Shown: piece by piece, positions 1 to 6,921 of the stretch
Layout: the number at the start of each line of letters is the position of its first letter
Numbering within the stretch: position 1 is the first letter of the stretch
Virus record (IMG/VR): IMGVR_UViG_2563366929_000003
Length of the DNA: 6,921 nt
From: a virus
Lineage: Duplodnaviria; Heunggongvirae; Uroviricota; Caudoviricetes
Reading direction: 5' to 3' (one strand)
Position numbers and translations under genes: made by a program
The notes under the pieces: model-generated
Told to the model about the DNA's origin: nothing
What the model saw: the letters and a program-made list of their open reading frames with translations, nothing else
The model's database searches: none

Positions 1-52
1 AAAGGGCCTTCCCGAGAGTGGTAAAGGAGAGGCCCTGGAAATACCCCACAGC

Positions 53-89
53 CCCGAAAAAGAGCCAGTCAGTTGCTTAACTGACTGGC
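53..89 (-). terminator. Putative intrinsic terminator for the minus-strand two-gene cassette: perfect 11-bp stem (64-74 gccagtcagtt / 79-89 aactgactggc) with 4-nt loop, followed on the minus strand by a T-rich run (rc of 53-63 = TCTTTTTCGGG)
   Basis: Read directly: perfect inverted repeat with gctt loop overlapping the stop codon (77-79) of the minus-strand ORF; a T-run follows in the minus orientation only. Confidence 0.5.
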
Positions 90-388
90 ATTACTGCTGT
101 AGCAAGATTTTTCCTGTATTCGTAAAATGATAACTCTCCTGATTTGAATCCTTTTAAGGTGGCTTCTATAAGGCATTTATTTTTTGAAAATCTTACATTT
201 ACAACCTTACCCTGTCCTTTTATTAAAACCGTATTATCGTTTTCAAGAACAAGATGAATATTCTCTGTGGCTAAATAGTAAATGTAATGTGAGACATTGT
301 GACGTTTTAGTTCAGAATAAAACCAGTGATAGTTTAAATTATTTCGCACTTTATCGAATATTTGTTTAAAAATGGCAATCTGAGCCAT
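77..388 (-). CDS. Hypothetical small protein (~103 aa), AT-rich accessory (moron-like) gene of unknown function; second gene of the minus-strand cassette
   Basis: ORF track 77..403 (108 aa). The first ATG (403) has no purine-rich Shine-Dalgarno upstream (upstream is a C7 tract), whereas the second in-frame ATG (386-388) is preceded by GAAGG at a 7-nt spacing, so the start at 388 is preferred. Region about 120-400 is far more AT-rich than the structural genes. I recognise no family. Confidence 0.5.
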
Positions 389-445
389 TGTAGTACCTTC
401 CATGTGATATGAGGGGGGGTAGTCTGCACGATTATCTAAATTGCT

Positions 446-679
446 TCAATCTGGTCTGACCTGTTTTCTGAGCAATTCAGTAATGTCACTCTTTTCTTTG
501 TTTGCTTCAGGCGAAACTCTTTTTTCTGAGCACAGTCTCCGGCGGCAGGCTTCAATGACCCAGGCTGAGAAATTCCCGGACCCTTTTTGAACAAGAGCGA
601 TGTTAATTTGTTCAATCATTTGGTTAGGAAAGCGGATGTTGCGGGTTGTTGTTCTGCGGGTTCTGTTCTTCGTTGACAT
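446..679 (-). CDS. Small basic DNA-binding protein, ribbon-helix-helix-like (77 aa); resembles the small YnfO/YlcI-type proteins that E. coli cryptic prophages encode next to their Nu1 homologues (recollection, unverified)
   Basis: ORF track 446..679. Basic N-terminal arm (MSTKNRTRRTTTR), then a predicted beta-strand (NIRFP), helix (NQMIEQINIALVQ), a G-x-S/N turn (KGSGN) and second helix (FSAWVIEACRRRL), the typical RHH (Arc/MetJ/CopG-like) layout. Sits divergently just upstream of cos and the Nu1 gene. Confidence 0.65.
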   Translation of the reverse strand: MSTKNRTRRTTTRNIRFPNQMIEQINIALVQKGSGNFSAWVIEACRRRLCSEKRVSPEANKEKSDITELLRKQVRPD

Positions 680-878
680 GAGGTTGCCCTGTATTCAGTG
701 TCGCTGATTTGTATTGTCTGAAGTTGTTTTTACGTTAGGTTGATGCAGATCAATTAATACGATACCTGCGTCATAATTGATTATTTGACGTGGTTTGATG
801 GCCTCCACGCACGTTGTGATATGTAGATGATAATCATTATCGCTTTACGGGTCCTTTCCGGTGATCCGACAGGTTACG

Positions 879-890
879 GGGCGGCGACCT
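879..890. other. cosN: cosN: 12-nt cohesive-end sequence GGGCGGCGACCT (terminase nicking site) of a lambda/21-type cos phage
   Basis: Read directly: 847-878 (acgggtcctttccggtgatccgacaggttacg) matches the lambda right-end sequence as I recall it, followed by gggcggcgacct, then cgcggtttttcactatttatgaaaatttt, nearly identical to the lambda left end. Nu1/A homologues lie immediately downstream. Confidence 0.85.
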
Positions 891-1042
891 CGCGGTTTTT
901 CACTATTTATGAAAATTTTTCAGGGAAAATCGTGTCGGTACTTCTCGAATATAACTTTTTGTTTTTTTTTAATATTGCATTCATAAATGTCCGACATGAA
1001 AGTGTCCGAAAATGCCTTTTTCTGGCGTTTTCATGTCGGGCC
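891..1042. promoter_or_regulatory. cosB: Putative cosB: terminase small-subunit binding repeats (R-like elements containing TTTCATGTCGG / CCGACATGAAA) plus an AT-rich tract (948-985, T5GT9) that may be an IHF/bending site
   Basis: Read directly: 11-bp inverted repeat 991-1001 ccgacatgaaa / 1029-1039 tttcatgtcgg, a related partial copy at 1003-1014 (gtgtccgaaaatg), and a weaker related copy at about 892-905. Position between cosN and the Nu1 start is analogous to the lambda R3-I1-R2-R1 layout, but the repeat sequence differs from the lambda CGTTTCC-type R sites as I recall them. Confidence 0.4.
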
Positions 1043-1067
1043 TTGTATTTGATAATGGGTTGTTTTC

Positions 1068-1616
1068 ATGAAGGTTAATAAAAAGAGGCTTGCCGAAATT
1101 TTTAACGTGGACCCGCGGACGATTGAACGCTGGCAGTCTCAGGGACTCCCTTGCGCCTCCAAAGGTAGTAAGGGCATTGAATCTGTATTTGATACTGCCA
1201 TGGCAATTCAGTGGTATGCGCAGAGGGAAACTGATATCGAAAACGAAAAGCTCCGCAAAGAACTGGCCGATTTGCGTGCGGCAGCGGAGTCAGATTTACA
1301 ACCCGGCACCATTGACTATGAACGCTACCGGCTCACAAAAGCGCAGGCAGATGCGCAGGAACTGAAAAATGCCCGTGAAGACGGAGTGGTGCTGGAAACT
1401 GAACTGTTTACCTTCATTCTGCAACGTGTGGCACAGGAGATTTCGGGGATACTTGTGCGTGTGCCGTTGACATTACAGCGTAAATATCCGGACATTTCAC
1501 CATCACACCTTGATGTGGTGAAAACTGAAATCGCGAAAGCCTCCAATGTTGCAGCTAAGGCCGGTGAAAACGTGGGCGGGTGGATCGATGATTTCAGACG
1601 CGCAGAAGGCAGCTAA
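1068..1616 (+). CDS. nu1: Terminase small subunit (lambda Nu1-like / phage 21 gp1-like), N-terminal winged-HTH DNA-binding domain
   Basis: ORF track 1068..1616 (182 aa). N-terminus [26 protein letters not shown]...[17 protein letters not shown] closely parallels lambda Nu1 (MEVNKKQLADIF...TIQNWQEQG...WYAERDAEIENEKLRRE) by recollection. First gene after cos; length matches Nu1 (181 aa). Confidence 0.9.
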
Positions 1617-3516
1617 TGCAGCCGGTGCGATAGCTACAGGGCTTTTATCTCTCATTATTCCTGTTCCACTGACGACAGTTCAGTGGGCCAATAAACATTA
1701 TTACCTTCCTAAAGAGTCGTCTTATACCCCGGGGCGGTGGGAAACACTGCCGTTTCAGGTTGGCATCATGAACTGTATGGGCAACGATTTGATTCGCACT
1801 GTTAACCTGATTAAATCTGCCCGTGTTGGTTATACAAAGATGTTGCTGGGAGTGGAGGCTTATTTTATTGAGCATAAATCACGCAACAGCCTTCTTTTTC
1901 AGCCCACGGACTCAGCTGCTGAAGATTTTATGAAATCTCATGTTGAGCCAACGATAAGGGATGTTCCTGCATTGCTGGAGCTGGCTCCATGGTTCGGAAG
2001 AAAACACCGCGATAATACGCTCACCCTGAAGCGTTTTTCCTCCGGTGTGGGGTTCTGGTGTCTGGGTGGTGCGGCAGCAAAAAACTACCGTGAAAAATCC
2101 GTGGATGTGGTCTGTTATGACGAGCTTTCCTCGTTCGAACCGGATGTTGAAAAAGAGGGTTCGCCAACCCTGCTGGGGGATAAACGTATTGAGGGCTCTG
2201 TATGGCCAAAATCCATTCGCGGCTCGACGCCTAAAATCAAAGGCTCCTGCCAGATCGAAAAAGCCGCTAACGAGTCGGCACACTTCATGCGTTTTTATGT
2301 GCCCTGTCCGCACTGTGGGGAGGAGCAGTATCTGAAATTTGGCGATGATGCCTCGCCTTTCGGTCTTAAGTGGGAGAAGAATAAGCCAGAAAGTGTTTTC
2401 TACCTTTGTGAGCATCATGGCTGTGTGATCCATCAGTCTGAGCTTGACCAGAGTAACGGGCGGTGGATCTGTGAAAACACGGGCATGTGGACCCGTGACG
2501 GCCTGATGTTTTTCAGCGCCCGGGGTGATGAAATTCCGCCGCCGCGCTCCATCACTTTCCATATCTGGACGGCGTACAGTCCGTTCACCACCTGGGTACA
2601 GATTGTCTATGACTGGCTGGATGCACTGAAAGATCCCAACGGCCTGAAAACCTTTGTGAACACCACGCTGGGCGAGACCTGGGAAGAGGCTGTGGGCGAA
2701 AAACTCGATCACCAGGTGCTGATGGATAAGGTTGTGCGTTACACGGCGGCGGTGCCTGCCCGGGTGGTTTATCTGACGGCGGGCATTGACTCGCAGCGAA
2801 ACCGTTTTGAGATGTATGTCTGGGGATGGGCTCCGGGAGAGGAAGCCTTTCTGGTGGATAAAATCATCATTATGGGGCGTCCCGATGAGGAAGAGACGCT
2901 GTTACGTGTGGATGCGGCGATCAACAAAAAATACCGCCATGCAGACGGAACCGAAATGACCATTTCCCGTGTCTGCTGGGACACCGGGGGGATCGATGGC
3001 GAAATCGTTTATCAGAGGTCAAAAAAACACGGTGTTTTCCGGGTGCTGCCGGTAAAAGGTGCATCTGTTTATGGCAAGCCGGTGATCACCATGCCAAAAA
3101 CCCGCAATCAGCGGGGCGTGTATCTGTGCGAAGTGGGGACGGACACCGCAAAAGAAATTCTCTATGCCCGTATGAAAGCCGATCCCACGCCTGCGGATGA
3201 AGCCACGTCGTATGCCATCCGTTTTCCTGATGATCCGGAGATTTTTTCGCAGACAGAGGCGCAGCAACTGGTGGCGGAAGAGCTTGTGGAGAAGTGGGAA
3301 AAAGGAAAGATGCGTCTGCTGTGGGATAACAAAAAGCGGCGTAACGAAGCGCTGGACTGCCTGGTGTATGCCTACGCGGCATTACGTGTGTCCGTGCAAC
3401 GCTGGCAGCTTGATCTGGCTGTACTGGCAAAATCCCGGGAAGAAGAGACGACCCGGCCAACCCTTAAAGAACTGGCAGCGAAGCTGTCCGGAGGAGTGAA
3501 TGGTTACAGTCGCTGA
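1588..3516 (+). CDS. A: Terminase large subunit (lambda gpA-like); ATPase/translocase plus endonuclease
   Basis: ORF track 1546..3516. Contains [10 protein letters not shown] at 1813-1842 (lambda Walker-A-like segment KSARVGYS), [20 protein letters not shown]...CEHHGC (2305-2424) and C-terminal RRNEALDC, all paralleling lambda gpA by recollection. Preferred start is ATG 1588 (MISDAQ...), giving 642 aa against lambda's 641 and overlapping the Nu1 end by 29 nt; the longer ATG 1546 is possible. Confidence 0.88.
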
Positions 3517-3706
3517 ACTGCAGGCGCTGCGTCAGGCGCGCCTTGATTTATTAACCGGTAAACGGGTGGTGTCTGTCCAGAAAGATGGTCGCAGAATTGA
3601 ATATACGGCAGCTTCTCTGGATGAGCTTAACCGGGCGATCAATGATGCGGAGTCGGTACTGGGGACAACCCGCCGTCGCCGTCGTCCGCTGGGAGTGAGG
3701 TTATGA
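3500..3706 (+). CDS. W: Head-tail joining / head completion protein (lambda gpW-like), 68 aa
   Basis: ORF track 3500..3706. Same length as lambda gpW; motif LTGKRVVSVQKDGRRIEYTA parallels lambda W ([20 protein letters not shown]). GGAGGAG at 3491-3497 just upstream of the ATG; overlaps the end of A by 17 nt. Confidence 0.85.
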   Translation: MVTVAELQALRQARLDLLTGKRVVSVQKDGRRIEYTAASLDELNRAINDAESVLGTTRRRRRPLGVRL

Positions 3707-5295
3707 AACGAACGCCTGTCCTGATTGATGTGAACGGCGTTCCGCTTCGTGAGAGTCTCAGCTACAACGGGGGCGGTGCAGGATTTGGCGGGCAAATGGC
3801 TGAGTGGTTGCCACCGGCGCAGAGTGCCGATGCGGCCCTGCTGCCCGCGTTGCGTCTGGGGAATGCCCGGGCAGATGATCTGGTGCGCAATAACGGAATA
3901 GCGGCCAATGCGGTGGCCCTGCATAAGGATCACATTGTCGGGCATATGTTTCTGATCAGCTACCGTCCGAACTGGCGCTGGCTGGGGATGCGGGAGACCG
4001 CGGCAAAAAGCTTTGTCGATGAGGTGGAGGCGGCCTGGTCAGAATACGCCGAAGGGATGTTTGGCGAGATCGACGTGGAAGGGAAACGCACGTTCACGGA
4101 ATTTATCCGTGAAGGTGTGGGCGTTCATGCGTTTAACGGCGAAATCTTTGTGCAGCCGGTCTGGGATACGGAGAGTACGCAACTGTTTCGTACGCGTTTT
4201 AAAGCCGTGAGTCCGAAACGGGTGGACACGCCAGGACACGGTATCGGGAACCGTTTTCTGCGGGCCGGTGTGGAGGTTGATCGATATGGCCGTGCCGTTG
4301 CGTACCATATCTGTGAGGATGATTTTCCTCGCTCCGGGAGTGGACGATGGGAACGGATCCCGCGTGAACTACCCACCGGGCGTCCGGCCATGCTGCATAT
4401 TTTCGAGCCGGTGGAGGACGGGCAGACCCGTGGGGCTAATCAGTTTTACAGCGTCATGGAACGGCTGAAGATGCTCGATTCCCTGCAGGCAACACAGCTT
4501 CAGTCGGCCATAGTGAAGGCGATGTATGCAGCGACGATTGAAAGTGAACTTGATACCGAAAAGGCCTTTGAATATATCGCCGGCGCGCCACAGGAGCAGA
4601 AGGATAATCCGCTTATTAATATTCTGGAGAAGTTTTCCAGCTGGTATGACACGAATAACGTGACACTGGGCGGTGTCAAAATTCCGCACCTTTTCCCTGG
4701 TGATGATCTGAAACTACAGACTGCGCAGGATTCAGACAATGGATTTTCTGCGCTTGAACAGGCGCTGCTGCGGTATATCGCCGCCGGTCTTGGCGTTTCC
4801 TACGAACAGTTGTCCCGTGATTACTCGAAGGTCAGTTACTCAAGTGCCCGCGCCTCCGCCAATGAGTCGTGGCGCTATTTTATGGGGCGGCGAAAATTTA
4901 TTGCGGCCCGGCTGGCCACGCAGATGTTTTCCTGCTGGCTGGAAGAGGCACTTCTTCGGGGGATTATTCGTCCGCCACGGGCACGTTTTGATTTTTATCA
5001 GGCGCGATCAGCCTGGTCACGGGCAGAGTGGATTGGTGCCGGAAGAATGGCCATTGACGGGCTCAAGGAAGTCCAGGAATCAGTGATGCGCATTGAGGCC
5101 GGACTGAGCACGTATGAGAAAGAGCTGGCGCTGATGGGCGAGGATTATCAGGACATTTTCCGCCAGCAGGTCAGGGAATCTGCTGAGCGGCAAAAAGCCG
5201 GACTCTCACGTCCGGTGTGGATAGCGCAGGCGTATCAGCAGCAGATAGCGGAGAGTCGCAGGCCGGAAGAGGAGACAACACCACGTGAGACGTAA
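3703..5295 (+). CDS. B: Portal protein (lambda gpB-like), 530 aa
   Basis: ORF track 3703..5295. Position between W and the protease gene and size (lambda B is 533 aa) match; ATGA start/stop overlap with W; GGAG in the 3691-3699 region upstream. Confidence 0.88.
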   Translation: MKRTPVLIDVNGVPLRESLSYNGGGAGFGGQMAEWLPPAQSADAALLPALRLGNARADDLVRNNGIAANAVALHKDHIVGHMFLISYRPNWRWLGMRETAAKSFVDEVEAAWSEYAEGMFGEIDVEGKRTFTEFIREGVGVHAFNGEIFVQPVWDTESTQLFRTRFKAVSPKRVDTPGHGIGNRFLRAGVEVDRYGRAVAYHICEDDFPRSGSGRWERIPRELPTGRPAMLHIFEPVEDGQTRGANQFYSVMERLKMLDSLQATQLQSAIVKAMYAATIESELDTEKAFEYIAGAPQEQKDNPLINILEKFSSWYDTNNVTLGGVKIPHLFPGDDLKLQTAQDSDNGFSALEQALLRYIAAGLGVSYEQLSRDYSKVSYSSARASANESWRYFMGRRKFIAARLATQMFSCWLEEALLRGIIRPPRARFDFYQARSAWSRAEWIGAGRMAIDGLKEVQESVMRIEAGLSTYEKELALMGEDYQDIFRQQVRESAERQKAGLSRPVWIAQAYQQQIAESRRPEEETTPRET

Positions 5296-6790
5296 TCTTT
5301 CACACATTATTGCCGCAGCATTCAATGAACCGCTGCTTCTGGAGCCCGCCTATGCGCGGGTTTTCTTTTGCGCGCTCGGGCGCGAGATGGGGGCAGCAAG
5401 TCTTTCGGTACCGCAACAGCAGGTACAGCTTGATGCTCCCGGGATGCTGGCTGAAACGGACGAGTACATGGCCGGAGGTAAACGACCGGCCCGTGTTTAC
5501 CGGGTGGTGAACGGTATTGCGGTACTGCCGGTGACCGGCACGCTGGTGCACCGGCTGGGGGGGATGCGGCCATTTTCCGGAATGACTGGCTATGACGGCA
5601 TTGTCGCCTGTCTTCAGCAGGCAATGGCAGATAGCCAGGTGCGGGGCGTACTGCTGGACATTGACAGTCCGGGCGGGCAGGCCGCCGGCGCGTTTGACTG
5701 CGCTGACATGATTTACCGCCTCCGGCAGCAGAAGCCGGTCTGGGCACTGTGCAATGACACGGCCTGTTCTGCAGCCATGCTGCTGGCGTCGGCCTGCTCC
5801 CGACGGCTGGTTACCCAGACATCCCGTATCGGCTCCATTGGCGTGATGATGAGCCATGTCAGCTATGCCGGTCATCTGGCGCAGGCCGGTGTGGATATCA
5901 CGCTGATTTACTCAGGGGCGCACAAGGTGGATGGCAATCAGTTTGAAGCGTTGCCGGCAGAGGTTCGCCAGGACATGCAGCAGCGGATTGATGCGGCGCG
6001 CCGGATGTTTGCCGAAAAAGTGGCGATGTTTACCGGTCTGTCTGTTGATGCAGTCACGGGAACAGAGGCCGCCGTTTTTGAAGGTCAGTCCGGCATTGAG
6101 GCCGGGCTGGCGGATGAATTAATCAATGCGTCGGATGCCATCAGTGTGATGGCCACGGCGCTGAACAGTAATGTCAGAGGAGGTACTATGCCGCAATTAA
6201 CTGCAACGGAAGCCGCCGCGCAGGAGAACCAGCGAGTGATGGGGATCCTGACATGCCAGGAAGCGAAAGGACGTGAACAGCTTGCCACGATGCTGGCAGG
6301 ACAACAGGGCATGAGCGTTGAACAGGCCCGGGCGATTCTGGCCGCGGCGGCACCGCAGCAGCCGGTGGCATCCGCGCAGAGTGAAGCCGATCGCATTATG
6401 GCGTGTGAAGAAGCGAACGGTCGTGAACAACTGGCGGCAACGCTGGCGGCGATGCCGGAGATGACGGTGGAAAAAGCCCGCCCGATCCTGGCGGCTGCAC
6501 CACTGGCGGATGCCGGGCCCTCGCTTCGTGATCAGATCATGGCACTGGATGAGGCAAAAGGGGCAGAAGCGCAGGCTGAACAACTGGCTGCCTGCCCGGG
6601 AATGACAGTGGAGAGCGCCCGGGCTGTGCTGGCTGCGGGATCAGGTAAGGCAGAACCGGTCTCTGCATCCACAACCGCCCTGTTTGAACATTTCATGGCG
6701 AACCATTCACCGGCAGCGGTACAGGGTGGCGTGGCACAGACGTCAGCAGACGGTGATGCGGACGTGAAAATGCTCATGGCCATGCCATGA
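5285..6790 (+). CDS. C: Prohead protease, S49 peptidase family (lambda gpC-like), with C-terminal scaffold-like repeat domain
   Basis: ORF track 5285..6790 (501 aa), GTG start overlapping the portal stop by 11 nt, GGAG at 5271-5274. N-terminal 300 aa parallel lambda C (AFNEPLLLEPAYARVFFCALG; GIAVLPVTGTLV; MTGYDGI; GAFDCADMI; KPVWAL; SRRLVTQTSRIGSIGVMM; ITLIYSGAHKVDGN) by recollection. Confidence 0.88.
   Translation: MRRNLSHIIAAAFNEPLLLEPAYARVFFCALGREMGAASLSVPQQQVQLDAPGMLAETDEYMAGGKRPARVYRVVNGIAVLPVTGTLVHRLGGMRPFSGMTGYDGIVACLQQAMADSQVRGVLLDIDSPGGQAAGAFDCADMIYRLRQQKPVWALCNDTACSAAMLLASACSRRLVTQTSRIGSIGVMMSHVSYAGHLAQAGVDITLIYSGAHKVDGNQFEALPAEVRQDMQQRIDAARRMFAEKVAMFTGLSVDAVTGTEAAVFEGQSGIEAGLADELINASDAISVMATALNSNVRGGTMPQLTATEAAAQENQRVMGILTCQEAKGREQLATMLAGQQGMSVEQARAILAAAAPQQPVASAQSEADRIMACEEANGREQLAATLAAMPEMTVEKARPILAAAPLADAGPSLRDQIMALDEAKGAEAQAEQLAACPGMTVESARAVLAAGSGKAEPVSASTTALFEHFMANHSPAAVQGGVAQTSADGDADVKMLMAMP
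6188..6790 (+). CDS. nu3: Nested in-frame scaffold protein (lambda Nu3-like), translated from an internal start within the protease gene; 200 aa
   Basis: Read directly: strong Shine-Dalgarno GAGGAGG (6176-6182) 5 nt upstream of an in-frame ATG at 6188 (codon 302 of the protease ORF). The product is Ala/Glu/Gln-rich, low-complexity and repeat-containing, as expected of a scaffold. Lambda has the same C/Nu3 nested arrangement. Confidence 0.6.
   Translation: MPQLTATEAAAQENQRVMGILTCQEAKGREQLATMLAGQQGMSVEQARAILAAAAPQQPVASAQSEADRIMACEEANGREQLAATLAAMPEMTVEKARPILAAAPLADAGPSLRDQIMALDEAKGAEAQAEQLAACPGMTVESARAVLAAGSGKAEPVSASTTALFEHFMANHSPAAVQGGVAQTSADGDADVKMLMAMP
6224..6670 (+). repeat. Three tandem, diverged ~48-53-aa protein-level repeats within the scaffold/Nu3 region (units approx 6224-6382, 6383-6526, 6527-6670)
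   Basis: Read from the translation: ENQRVMGILTCQEAKGREQLATMLAGQQGMSVEQARAILAAAAPQ / EADRIMACEEANGREQLAATLAAMPEMTVEKARPILAAAPLA / RDQIMALDEAKGAEAQAEQLAACPGMTVESARAVLAAGSG. All units are in the same frame with 159- and 144-nt spacing; DNA identity between units is only partial. Confidence 0.7.
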
Positions 6791-6826
6791 AGTCAGTGCT
6801 GACCATCAATAGGAGGTTTTTACAAT

Positions 6827-6921
6827 ATGGTGACGAAAACCATCACTGAACAGCGTGCGGAAGTACGTATTTTTGCCGGTAATGATCCGGCTCATACCGC
6901 CACAGGCAGCAGCGGGATTTC
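6827..6921 (+). CDS. D: Head decoration protein (lambda gpD-like), 5' partial (continues beyond window)
   Basis: ATG at 6827 preceded by AGGAGG (6811-6816). N-terminus MVTKTITEQRAEVRIFAGNDPAHTATGSSGI carries the NDPAHTAT motif recalled from lambda gpD (...SDPAHTATAPGG...). Position immediately after C/Nu3 matches lambda order. Confidence 0.8.
   Translation, partial: MVTKTITEQRAEVRIFAGNDPAHTATGSSGI

What the first reader, a model, noticed from the sequence alone, without database searches (positions are those of the whole stretch)
847..910. Intact lambda-type cos site with identical 12-nt cohesive end
GGGCGGCGACCT (879-890) is the lambda cohesive-end sequence, and the flanks (847-878 and 891-920) match the lambda right and left termini almost base for base as I recall them. 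Similarity then falls off from about 905 onward. This shows that the element packages DNA by a cos mechanism, that the window spans the junction of the genome's right and left ends (so it is circular or integrated, not a linear virion end), and that the packaging site is undecayed.
Basis: partly seen in the sequence, partly recalled or inferred. Interest (0 to 1): 0.5.

Follow-up and report, generated by a model that had tools for sequence, protein, structure and literature searches.

The report
Phage-21-type cos site in prophage
This is the ordinary DNA-packaging (cos) site of a lambda-family prophage of E. coli: it has the same 12-base sticky end as phage lambda, but its recognition sites and enzyme genes are those of phage 21, and near-identical copies sit in hundreds of sequenced E. 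coli genomes.

Summary
GGGCGGCGACCT is at 879-890, once in the window. 847-878 matches the lambda right end 32/32. 879-920 matches the lambda left end 39/42 and phage 21 42/42.

The site is complete: cosQ (GGGTCCT, 849-855), cosN (877-892) and a tripartite cosB (R3 928-943, IHF site I1 952-964, inverted R2 986-1001, R1 1029-1044). Intact terS, terL, head-completion, portal and protease/scaffold genes follow.

"Lambda-type" is only half right. Left of cosN the DNA is lambda-like. From cosN rightwards it is phage 21 (98.8% nt; TerS 181/182 aa, TerL 640/642). The specificity-determining positions are 21-type: R3 bp 56/59 = G/G, TerS E20/S24. Similarity to lambda drops at about 921, not 905, because the module switches, not because the site has decayed.

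The window is identical to one contig, bounded by gaps, of a 4.7-Mb chromosomal scaffold, so the element is integrated.

Two caveats on "undecayed". An R2 substitution (T988) was found in prophages only, not in isolated phages. There is also one extra T beside I1, which restores lambda's R3-R2 spacing.

All of this is well-described biology and common in E. coli. Interest is low.

The parts
1..93 (.). End of an IS4 element at the contig edge. It truncates the DUF1398 gene. This is context, not part of cos.
   Evidence: window 1-96 is 100% identical to the ends of annotated IS4 elements in more than 2500 E. coli genomes; no complete genome has this junction.
77..388 (-). Truncated DUF1398 (YbcV-like) gene, 103 aa here against 136 aa in relatives.
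   Evidence: gene table for L015 (PF07166).
446..679 (-). ynfO/YlcI-family gene (77 aa). It lies in the right-end module.
   Evidence: PF13132.
540..878 (+). Right-end segment almost identical to the last ~340 bp of phage lambda.
   Evidence: Alignment; 32/32 over 847-878.
849..855 (+). cosQ heptamer GGGTCCT, the packaging-termination subsite. It starts 30 bp before the right-end terminus, as in lambda and 21.
   Evidence: Position transferred from the OL657228 cosQ annotation. The sequence is identical in lambda, 21 and the window.
877..892 (+). cosN: the 12-bp cohesive-end sequence (879-890) plus 2 bp on each side. Inferred nicks lie between 878/879 on the top strand and 890/891 on the bottom strand. 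10 of the 16 bp are two-fold symmetric.
   Evidence: The definition of cosN and its symmetry is from PMC9026076.
869..895 (.). Crossover interval between the lambda-type right end and the 21-type left end. The last lambda-specific base is 868 and the first 21-specific base is 896.
   Evidence: Alignments.
908..922 (+). I2, an IHF-like site annotated in phage 21. It lies in a block conserved between lambda and 21.
   Evidence: Transferred from M81255 196-210. Identical to 21.
928..943 (+). cosB R3 (AATCGTGTCGGTACTT), the critical TerS-binding site. It is identical to phage 21 and lies at +50 to +65 from the left end.
   Evidence: bp 56 and 59 are G/G, the 21 type.
952..964 (-). cosB I1, an IHF site (AAACAAAAAGTTA on the - strand; one mismatch to WATCAANNNNTTR).
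962..970 (+). Run of 9 T where phage 21 and most relatives have 8. It moves R2 and R1 one base further from R3.
   Evidence: The exact 71-bp stretch with 9 T is present in 7 complete E. coli genomes.
986..1001 (-). cosB R2, inverted (reads TTTCATGTCGGACATT on the - strand). One substitution relative to phage 21 (window 988 T, 21 G), at the position equivalent to R3 bp 63.
1029..1044 (+). cosB R1 (TTTCATGTCGGGCCTT), identical to phage 21.
1051..1065 (-). I0, an IHF-like site just upstream of gene 1.
   Evidence: M81255 annotation. One-mismatch consensus hit at 1053-1065.
1068..1616 (+). Gene 1, terminase small subunit (TerS, Nu1 family), 182 aa. It is 181/182 identical to phage 21 gp1 (D67A) and 52% identical to lambda Nu1. 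The recognition helix is 21-type (E20, S24).
   Evidence: Pfam PF07471.
1588..3516 (+). Gene 2, terminase large subunit (TerL, gpA family), 642 aa. It is 640/642 identical to phage 21 gp2 (I466T, V536A).
   Evidence: Pfam PF05876 and PF20454.
3500..3706 (+). Gene 3, gpW-like head completion protein, 68 aa, identical to phage 21.
3703..5295 (+). Gene 4, portal protein, 530 aa (526/530 identical to 21).
5285..6790 (+). Gene 5, S49 prohead protease/scaffold, 501 aa. The nested scaffold gene 6 lies at 6188-6790.
6827..6921 (+). First 31 codons of the head decoration gene, cut by the end of the contig.

Best explanation
The finding is the complete cos site of an integrated lambdoid prophage whose packaging module is that of phage 21.

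Proposed mechanism, taken from the lambda/21 literature and not shown for this copy:
1. After induction and rolling-circle replication, dimers of the small terminase subunit (gene 1, 1068-1616) bind the R boxes of cosB. IHF bends the DNA at I1, so that R3 (928-943) and the inverted R2 (986-1001) face one TerS dimer.
2. This anchors the large subunit (gene 2, 1588-3516) on cosN.
3. The large subunit nicks the top strand between 878/879 and the bottom strand between 890/891. That gives 12-nt 5' overhangs reading GGGCGGCGACCT.
4. DNA to the right is pumped into proheads through the portal (gene 4).
5. Packaging ends when the motor meets the next cosQ (849-855) plus cosN.

Recognition is 21-specific, so lambda terminase should package this DNA poorly.

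The element is a natural mosaic. The right end up to cosN is lambda-like, and everything from cosN rightwards is 21-like. The exchange point lies in the 27-bp interval 869-895 that contains cosN.
For: Shown here:
- The cohesive-end 12-mer is exact and unique.
- cosQ, the cosQ-cosN spacing and cosN are identical to lambda.
- Window 879-6921 is 98.8% identical to phage 21 OL657228, and the annotated cosN/R3/I1/R2/R1 features map one to one.
- The R-box core CRTGTCGG occurs three times in the window, all in cosB and in + - + orientation. 0.47 are expected by chance, and 1 of 200 shuffles reached 3.
- IHF-consensus hits lie at I1 and I0.
- The cosN-to-R3 distance is unchanged, with the R3 core at +53.
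- TerS is 181/182 and TerL 640/642 identical to phage 21. All five ORFs are open, with the expected Pfam families.
- Specificity positions are 21-type: R3 bp 56/59 = G/G against lambda T/C, and TerS E20/S24 against lambda Q20/E24 (the positions are defined in PMC4669245).
- The same right-end/cos/cosB junction is present in 632 of 5426 complete E. coli genomes at 80% coverage or more. Full-window matches lie inside prophages running from integrase to tail fibre.

From the literature:
- Lab hybrids with a lambda genome and a 21 left end are viable (PMC4669245).
Against: - Nothing shows that this copy is ever cut.
- cosB differs from phage 21 at four positions: an extra T in the run 962-970, plus 981, 983 and 988.
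- Position 988 lies in R2, at a position conserved in all three R boxes of 21 and equivalent to R3 bp 63. That is the edge of the segment contacted by TerS.
- The T988 allele is in at least 173 E. coli genomes but in none of the 14 phage records with a 21-type cosB.
- The source is a gapped scaffold with an IS4 at window 1-93. Its neighbouring contig belongs to a prophage part that lacks most of the O and P genes. The prophage may therefore be defective.
Confidence: 0.9

Rival explanations
1. The site looks complete but is impaired or never used. Either the R2 substitution (T988) and the extra T beside I1 weaken assembly of terminase on cosB, or the prophage is defective, so the site is a well-preserved relic.
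For: - The T988 allele is found in prophages only, in none of the 14 phage records with a 21-type cosB.
- An IS4 lies 790 bp upstream, and the scaffold has gaps on both sides.
- The neighbouring contig lacks most of O, P and the nin region.
- From my own knowledge: defective K-12 prophages such as DLP12 and Qin also keep cos-like sequences next to Nu1 homologues.
Against: - All five packaging and head ORFs are open and 98.8-100% identical to phage 21.
- R3, the critical site, and the cosN-R3 spacing are unchanged.
- In lambda the same mutation is milder in R2 or R1 than in R3 (PMC9026076).
- The extra T gives exactly lambda's R3-R2 core spacing: 53 to 113, against 53 to 112 in phage 21.
- The allele is kept in at least 173 genomes inside prophages that look complete.
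Confidence: 0.2
2. It is a cos site of lambda packaging specificity, which is the literal reading of 'lambda-type'. Lambda Nu1/A would then recognise and cut it.
For: cosQ, cosN and the flanks 847-920 are nearly identical to lambda.
Against: - cosB from 921 onwards has no lambda R boxes. CGTTTCC is absent, and CRTGTCGG is present three times.
- R3 bp 56/59 and TerS residues 20/24 are 21-type.
- TerS is only 52% identical to Nu1.
Confidence: 0.02
3. It is the cos of a phage-inducible chromosomal island (PICI) or other satellite that borrows a helper's terminase.
For: PICIs carry lambda-like cosQ and cosN (PMC9026076 and PMC6739421).
Against: - PICI cos sites lack phage R boxes and are followed by rpp.
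- Here three 21-type R boxes and an IHF site are followed by full terS, terL, portal and protease genes.
Confidence: 0.01
4. The lambda-right/21-left junction is an assembly chimera created where two prophage copies collapse in the draft assembly.
For: The window is a contig between N-gaps. The upstream contig ends in a second cos copy 101 bp after the two become identical, which looks like a repeat-induced break.
Against: The same junction is contiguous in closed genomes such as FDAARGOS_1292 and APEC O1, and in 632 complete genomes overall.
Confidence: 0.02

Closest known systems
cos site and head-gene operon of Escherichia phage 21 (M81255, X02501, OL657228)
   Same: - cosQ and cosN are identical.
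- 879-920 matches 42/42.
- R3 and R1 are identical, with the same R3-I1-R2-R1 architecture and the same cosN-R3 distance.
- TerS 181/182, TerL 640/642, gpW-like protein 68/68, portal 526/530 and protease 494/501 aa identical.

   Different: - The 21 bp between cosQ and cosN, and everything to the left, are lambda-type rather than 21-type. Three diagnostic bases are 861, 862 and 868, and the upstream genes are unrelated.
- cosB has one extra T beside I1, two changes between I1 and R2 (981, 983) and one change in R2 (988).

cos site of phage lambda (J02459)
   Same: - Right end 540-878 is almost identical (847-878 is 32/32).
- cosQ, cosN and the 12-nt cohesive end are identical.
- 891-920 matches 27/30.
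- The overall tripartite cosB plan is the same, as is the R3-R2 core spacing (53 to 113).

   Different: - R boxes are CRTGTCGG instead of CGTTTCC.
- R3 bp 56/59 are G/G instead of T/C.
- TerS is 52% and TerL 65% identical.
- The packaging specificity is therefore different.

Laboratory lambda-21 hybrids (e.g. lambda 21hy51), in which the lambda left end is replaced by 21 cosB plus the 5' part of gene 1
   Same: They have the same arrangement of a lambda-type right end and cosQ joined to a 21-type cosB, and they are viable (PMC4669245).
   Different: - In the lab hybrids the crossover lies inside the terS gene, and the rest of the head genes are lambda.
- Here the whole packaging and head module is 21-type and the exchange point is at cosN.
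Resident lambdoid prophages of E. coli such as those in APEC O1, FDAARGOS_1292 and ATCC 11775
   Same: Window 94-6921 matches at 98.7-99.0%, including the same lambda-right/21-left junction and the same R2 allele. APEC O1 also has 9 T.
   Different: They lack the IS4 insertion in the DUF1398 gene.

Membership tests
Lambda-like cos site (complex type: cosQ-cosN-cosB) | 12-bp cosN cohesive-end sequence with lambda-like sequence and partial two-fold symmetry | tested here: met
   12/12 identical to lambda and 21. 10 of the 16 bp at 877-892 are symmetric (criterion from PMC9026076).
Lambda-like cos site (complex type: cosQ-cosN-cosB) | Conserved 7-bp cosQ upstream of cosN at the canonical distance | tested here: met
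   GGGTCCT at 849-855, starting 30 bp before the right-end terminus as in lambda and 21.
Lambda-like cos site (complex type: cosQ-cosN-cosB) | cosB with three R boxes in the order R3-I1-R2-R1, with R2 inverted and an IHF site between R3 and R2 | tested here: met
   CRTGTCGG at 931-938 (+), 991-998 (-) and 1032-1039 (+). IHF-like site at 952-964.
Lambda-like cos site (complex type: cosQ-cosN-cosB) | Unaltered cosN-to-R3 distance (in lambda, a 3-bp deletion here is already severe) | tested here: met
   The R3 core starts at +53 in lambda, 21 and the window, with no indel between 879 and 961.
Lambda-like cos site (complex type: cosQ-cosN-cosB) | Nu1-family terS and gpA-family terL genes immediately downstream | tested here: met
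   PF07471, PF05876 and PF20454 on the identical locus L015. The ORFs are open.
Lambda-like cos site (complex type: cosQ-cosN-cosB) | Terminase actually nicks here to give 12-nt 5' overhangs | not testable with these tools
   Needs sequencing of virion DNA ends or an in vitro cos-cleavage assay.
Phage 21 packaging specificity | R3 bp 56 and 59 of the 21 type, and TerS residues 20 and 24 of the 21 type | tested here: met
   R3 is AATCGTGTCGGTACTT, identical to 21, with G56 and G59. The TerS recognition helix carries E20 and S24 (positions from PMC4669245).
Lambda packaging specificity | Lambda R boxes (CGTTTCC core; T56, C59) and Nu1 with Q20/E24 | tested here: not met
   The window's cosB has no CGTTTCC core. 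TerS is 52% identical to Nu1 and carries E20/S24.
N15-type simple cosB | A single R3 box, no IHF site, and rR2 inside terS | tested here: not met
   Three R boxes plus I1 lie upstream of terS.
PICI (EcCI) cos | cosQ and cosN without phage R boxes, followed by an rpp gene and no morphogenesis genes | tested here: not met
   Phage-type R boxes are present, with full terS, terL, portal and protease genes.

The most novel reading that the evidence does not exclude
The switch from lambda-type to 21-type sequence falls in a 27-bp interval (869-895) that contains cosN. Different right-end types are found joined to the same 21-type left end: lambda-type in the window, 21-type in phage 21 and in the neighbouring contig, and a third type in phage 1W. 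This could mean that lambdoid modules are exchanged by annealing and ligation of identical cohesive ends from different phages in a mixed infection or induction, rather than by homologous recombination. The data cannot separate the two. 869-895 is also the longest uninterrupted stretch of identity between the lambda-type and 21-type cos regions, which is where homologous recombination would be expected as well.
Probability: 0.1. Interest if true: 0.4.

Novelty: already known. Interest (0 to 1): 0.1.

Why it matters
It matters little beyond correct annotation.
- The site marks the physical genome ends of a common family of E. coli prophages. PGAP leaves it unannotated: "none" is listed under the match.
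- It shows that these prophages use phage 21 packaging specificity, not lambda's. That determines which helper phages, cosmids or PICIs could be cross-packaged.
- The cosN-centred mosaic junction is a tidy example of cos acting as a module boundary in lambdoid phages. That concept is established.

Tried and rejected
1. Chance match: rejected. The 12-mer is unique and sits inside 74 bp of near-identity.
2. Lambda specificity: rejected on the R boxes and the TerS residues.
3. PICI or N15-type cos: rejected on architecture and gene content.
4. Assembly chimera at the junction: rejected because closed genomes have the same junction.
5. I looked for an isolated phage carrying the window's exact cosB allele, to support function. 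None was found; the best hits were 95.8% among 14 records.
6. Exact source among complete E. coli genomes: none, with 99.0% the best match. The exact source was found instead through the TerL protein, as NCBI GCA_000408305.1 scaffold KE137004.1.
7. I tried to judge from the scaffold whether the prophage is whole. This was inconclusive because of the N-gaps and a probable collapsed repeat.
8. Tandem-repeat scan of the window: nothing relevant.

Full report
**Observation.** The 12-mer GGGCGGCGACCT is at window 879-890 on the + strand and occurs nowhere else in the window. Even allowing one mismatch, only 0.04 matches are expected by chance. I built the lambda junction from the last and first bases of J02459 and aligned it to the window.
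- Window 847-878 is 32/32 identical to the lambda right end.
- Window 879-920 is 39/42 identical to the lambda left end, with differences at 896, 902 and 920.
- On the left, near-identity to lambda runs from about 540 to 878.
- On the right, similarity collapses after about 920.

**What lies to the right of cosN.** A search of phage records gave phage 21 as the best match.
- Window 879-6921 is 98.8% identical to the complete phage 21 genome OL657228, and 879-920 is 42/42.
- Two phage 21 records carry curated cos annotation (M81255 and OL657228), which transfers onto the window as follows:

| Subsite | Window position |
|---|---|
| cosQ (GGGTCCT) | 849-855 |
| Cohesive end | 879-890 |
| I2 | 908-922 |
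| R3 | 928-943 |
| I1 | 952-964 |
| R2 (inverted) | 986-1001 |
| R1 | 1029-1044 |
| I0 | 1051-1065 |
| Gene 1 start | 1068 |

- These sites stand out without any annotation. The R-box core CRTGTCGG occurs exactly three times in the 6.9-kb window, all in cosB and in + - + orientation. 0.47 are expected by chance, and 1 of 200 shuffles reached three.
- One-mismatch IHF-consensus hits fall on I1 and I0.
- The 16 bp at 877-892 show two-fold symmetry at 10 positions, as described for cosN (PMC9026076).

**Genes.** Five open reading frames follow cos. Pfam families on the identical public locus are Phage_Nu1, GpA_ATPase/GpA_nuclease, gpW, Phage_portal_2 and Peptidase_S49.

| Gene | Window position | Length | Identity to phage 21 |
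|---|---|---|---|
| terS | 1068-1616 | 182 aa | 181/182 |
| terL | 1588-3516 | 642 aa | 640/642 |
| gpW-like | 3500-3706 | 68 aa | 68/68 |
| portal | 3703-5295 | 530 aa | 526/530 |
| protease/scaffold | 5285-6790 | 501 aa | 494/501 |

Against lambda the same proteins are 52% (TerS), 65% (TerL), about 50% (gpW-like), about 61% (portal) and about 55% (protease/scaffold) identical.

[quoted passage not shown] The difference rests on the R boxes and the TerS recognition helix, notably R3 bp 56 and 59 and TerS residues 20 and 24 (PMC4669245).
- The window has G56/G59, where lambda has T/C.
- Its TerS has E20/S24, where lambda has Q/E.

The site therefore has phage 21 specificity. "Lambda-type" is right for cosQ, cosN and the cohesive end, and wrong for the recognition part.

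**Mosaic structure.**
- Left of cosN, the three bases that distinguish lambda from 21 between cosQ and cosN (861, 862, 868) are lambda-type.
- Right of cosN, the first distinguishing bases (896, 902, 920) are 21-type.
- The exchange point therefore lies in 869-895, which contains cosN.
- This junction is not peculiar to the window. 632 of 5426 complete E. coli genomes hold at least 80% of window 690-1067 in one piece. The best full-window matches (94-6921, 98.7-99.0%) lie in prophages that run from integrase to tail fibres.
- Other right ends are joined to the same 21-type left end: 21-type in phage 21, PhiR57_1, L014 and L017, and a third type in phage 1W.
- Laboratory lambda-21 hybrids with a lambda genome and a 21 left end are viable (PMC4669245), so the combination is workable in principle.

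**Is it undecayed?** cosQ, cosN, R3, R1, I1 and the cosN-R3 distance are all identical to functional phages. Compared with phage 21, cosB has four differences.
- **Extra T.** The run at 962-970 has 9 T against 8 in phage 21. This shifts R2 and R1 by one base, but the resulting R3-R2 core spacing (53 to 113) is exactly that of lambda, while 21 has 53 to 112. I infer that the change is within tolerance. The exact 71-bp stretch with 9 T is in 7 complete genomes, including APEC O1.
- **Positions 981 and 983.** These lie in the spacer between I1 and R2.
- **Position 988 in R2.** On the R-box strand R2 reads TTTCATGTCGGACATT, against ...ACCTT in phage 21. The change is at the position equivalent to R3 bp 63, the edge of the bp 55-63 segment contacted by TerS (PMC9026076). 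In lambda, a given mutation is milder in R2 or R1 than in R3 (same source). This allele is in at least 173 complete E. coli genomes but in none of the 14 phage records with a 21-type cosB. Its competence is unproven.

**Source and context.** An exact-protein look-up of TerL found the window at 100% identity over all 6921 bases in NCBI assembly GCA_000408305.1, scaffold KE137004.1 (4.7 Mb), at L015 8414-15334. The window is a contig bounded by runs of N on both sides.
- **Left edge.** Window 1-93 is the end of an IS4, which truncates a DUF1398 gene.
- **Upstream contig.**
  - It belongs to a different prophage type, 99.3% identical to L014, in which most of O, P and the nin region are replaced by a transposase gene.
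  - It ends in a second cos copy with the 21-type cosQ-cosN spacer. That copy is cut 101 bp after the two copies become identical, which looks like a repeat-induced contig break.
- **Downstream contig.** It is of the same type as the window, 99.5% identical to L013.
- **What this leaves open.**
  - The genome probably has two cos sites. It may have two prophages sharing a collapsed 21-type head module, or one rearranged prophage. This cannot be resolved without reads.
  - Whether the prophage as a whole can produce virions is unknown. The sequence-level integrity of cos and of the packaging genes is not in doubt.

**Rivals.**
- A lambda-specific cos, a PICI cos and an N15-type simple cos are excluded by the R boxes, the IHF site and the gene content.
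- An assembly chimera is excluded by the closed genomes that carry the same junction.
- The one live rival is a well-preserved but unused or weakened site. I give it about 0.2.

**Verdict.** It is the packaging site of a very common E. coli lambdoid prophage family. Its cosQ, cosN and right end match lambda, and its cosB, terminase and head module are those of phage 21. All parts and their mechanism are already described in the literature, so the finding counts as already known and is of low interest.

The only mildly novel reading is that the exchange point at cosN reflects joining of compatible cohesive ends from different phages. The data do not support this over homologous recombination, because 869-895 is also the longest uninterrupted identity between the two cos types.

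Noticed in passing
window 1-93 (and 77-388, minus strand): The window begins with the end of an IS4 element inserted into a DUF1398 (YbcV-like) gene, leaving 103 aa where relatives have 136. No complete E. coli genome in the collection has this IS4/DUF1398 junction.
   Followed up: yes
L015 7722-7868 (scaffold KE137004.1, about 550 N upstream of the window): A second cos copy sits in the same scaffold. It has a 21-type right end, cosQ, cosN, I2, R3 and I1. It is cut in the T-run 101 bp after it becomes identical to the window copy. This suggests two prophages sharing a collapsed 21-type packaging module, or one prophage with two cos sites.
   Followed up: partly
L015 496-2350 compared with L014 197-3900: In the source scaffold, the prophage part upstream of the second cos lacks most of O, P and the nin region. 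An rve-family transposase gene sits in their place, so that part looks replication-defective.
   Followed up: partly
L015 15335-16929 (gap to the right of the window): The scaffold gap after the window is 1595 N. The matching interval in the closest relative, L013 (15334 to 16314), is about 980 bp. Either the gap estimate is off or there is an insertion in the decoration or capsid genes.
   Followed up: no
L009 1-90 (LR597643.1 / NC_049948.1, phage ev017): This public phage record begins with a poly-T run and what I recognise as an Illumina Nextera i7 adapter (CAAGCAGAAGACGGCATACGAGAT...CTGTCTCTTATACACATCT in reverse-complement form). The phage sequence then starts at base 10 of the cohesive end. 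This is adapter contamination in a reference record.
   Followed up: partly
window 4000-4500 (portal gene): Differences between the window and its relatives cluster here: 20-25 of about 70-90 mismatches fall in one 500-bp bin for phage 21, L013, L014 and L017. This suggests a small mosaic patch inside the portal gene.
   Followed up: no
window 827-1078 (+): An 83-codon ORF runs straight across cosQ, cosN and cosB. Several phage records annotate a 'hypothetical protein' over cos, and one gene call (L018) extends terS upstream to 262 aa. These are probably annotation artefacts.
   Followed up: no
window 986-1044: R2 and R1, with the sequence between them, form a 27-nt imperfect inverted repeat (78% complementary, 5-nt spacer). 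An R2-like half repeat, AAGTGTCCGA, lies at 1000-1009. Both are also present in phage 21.
   Followed up: no
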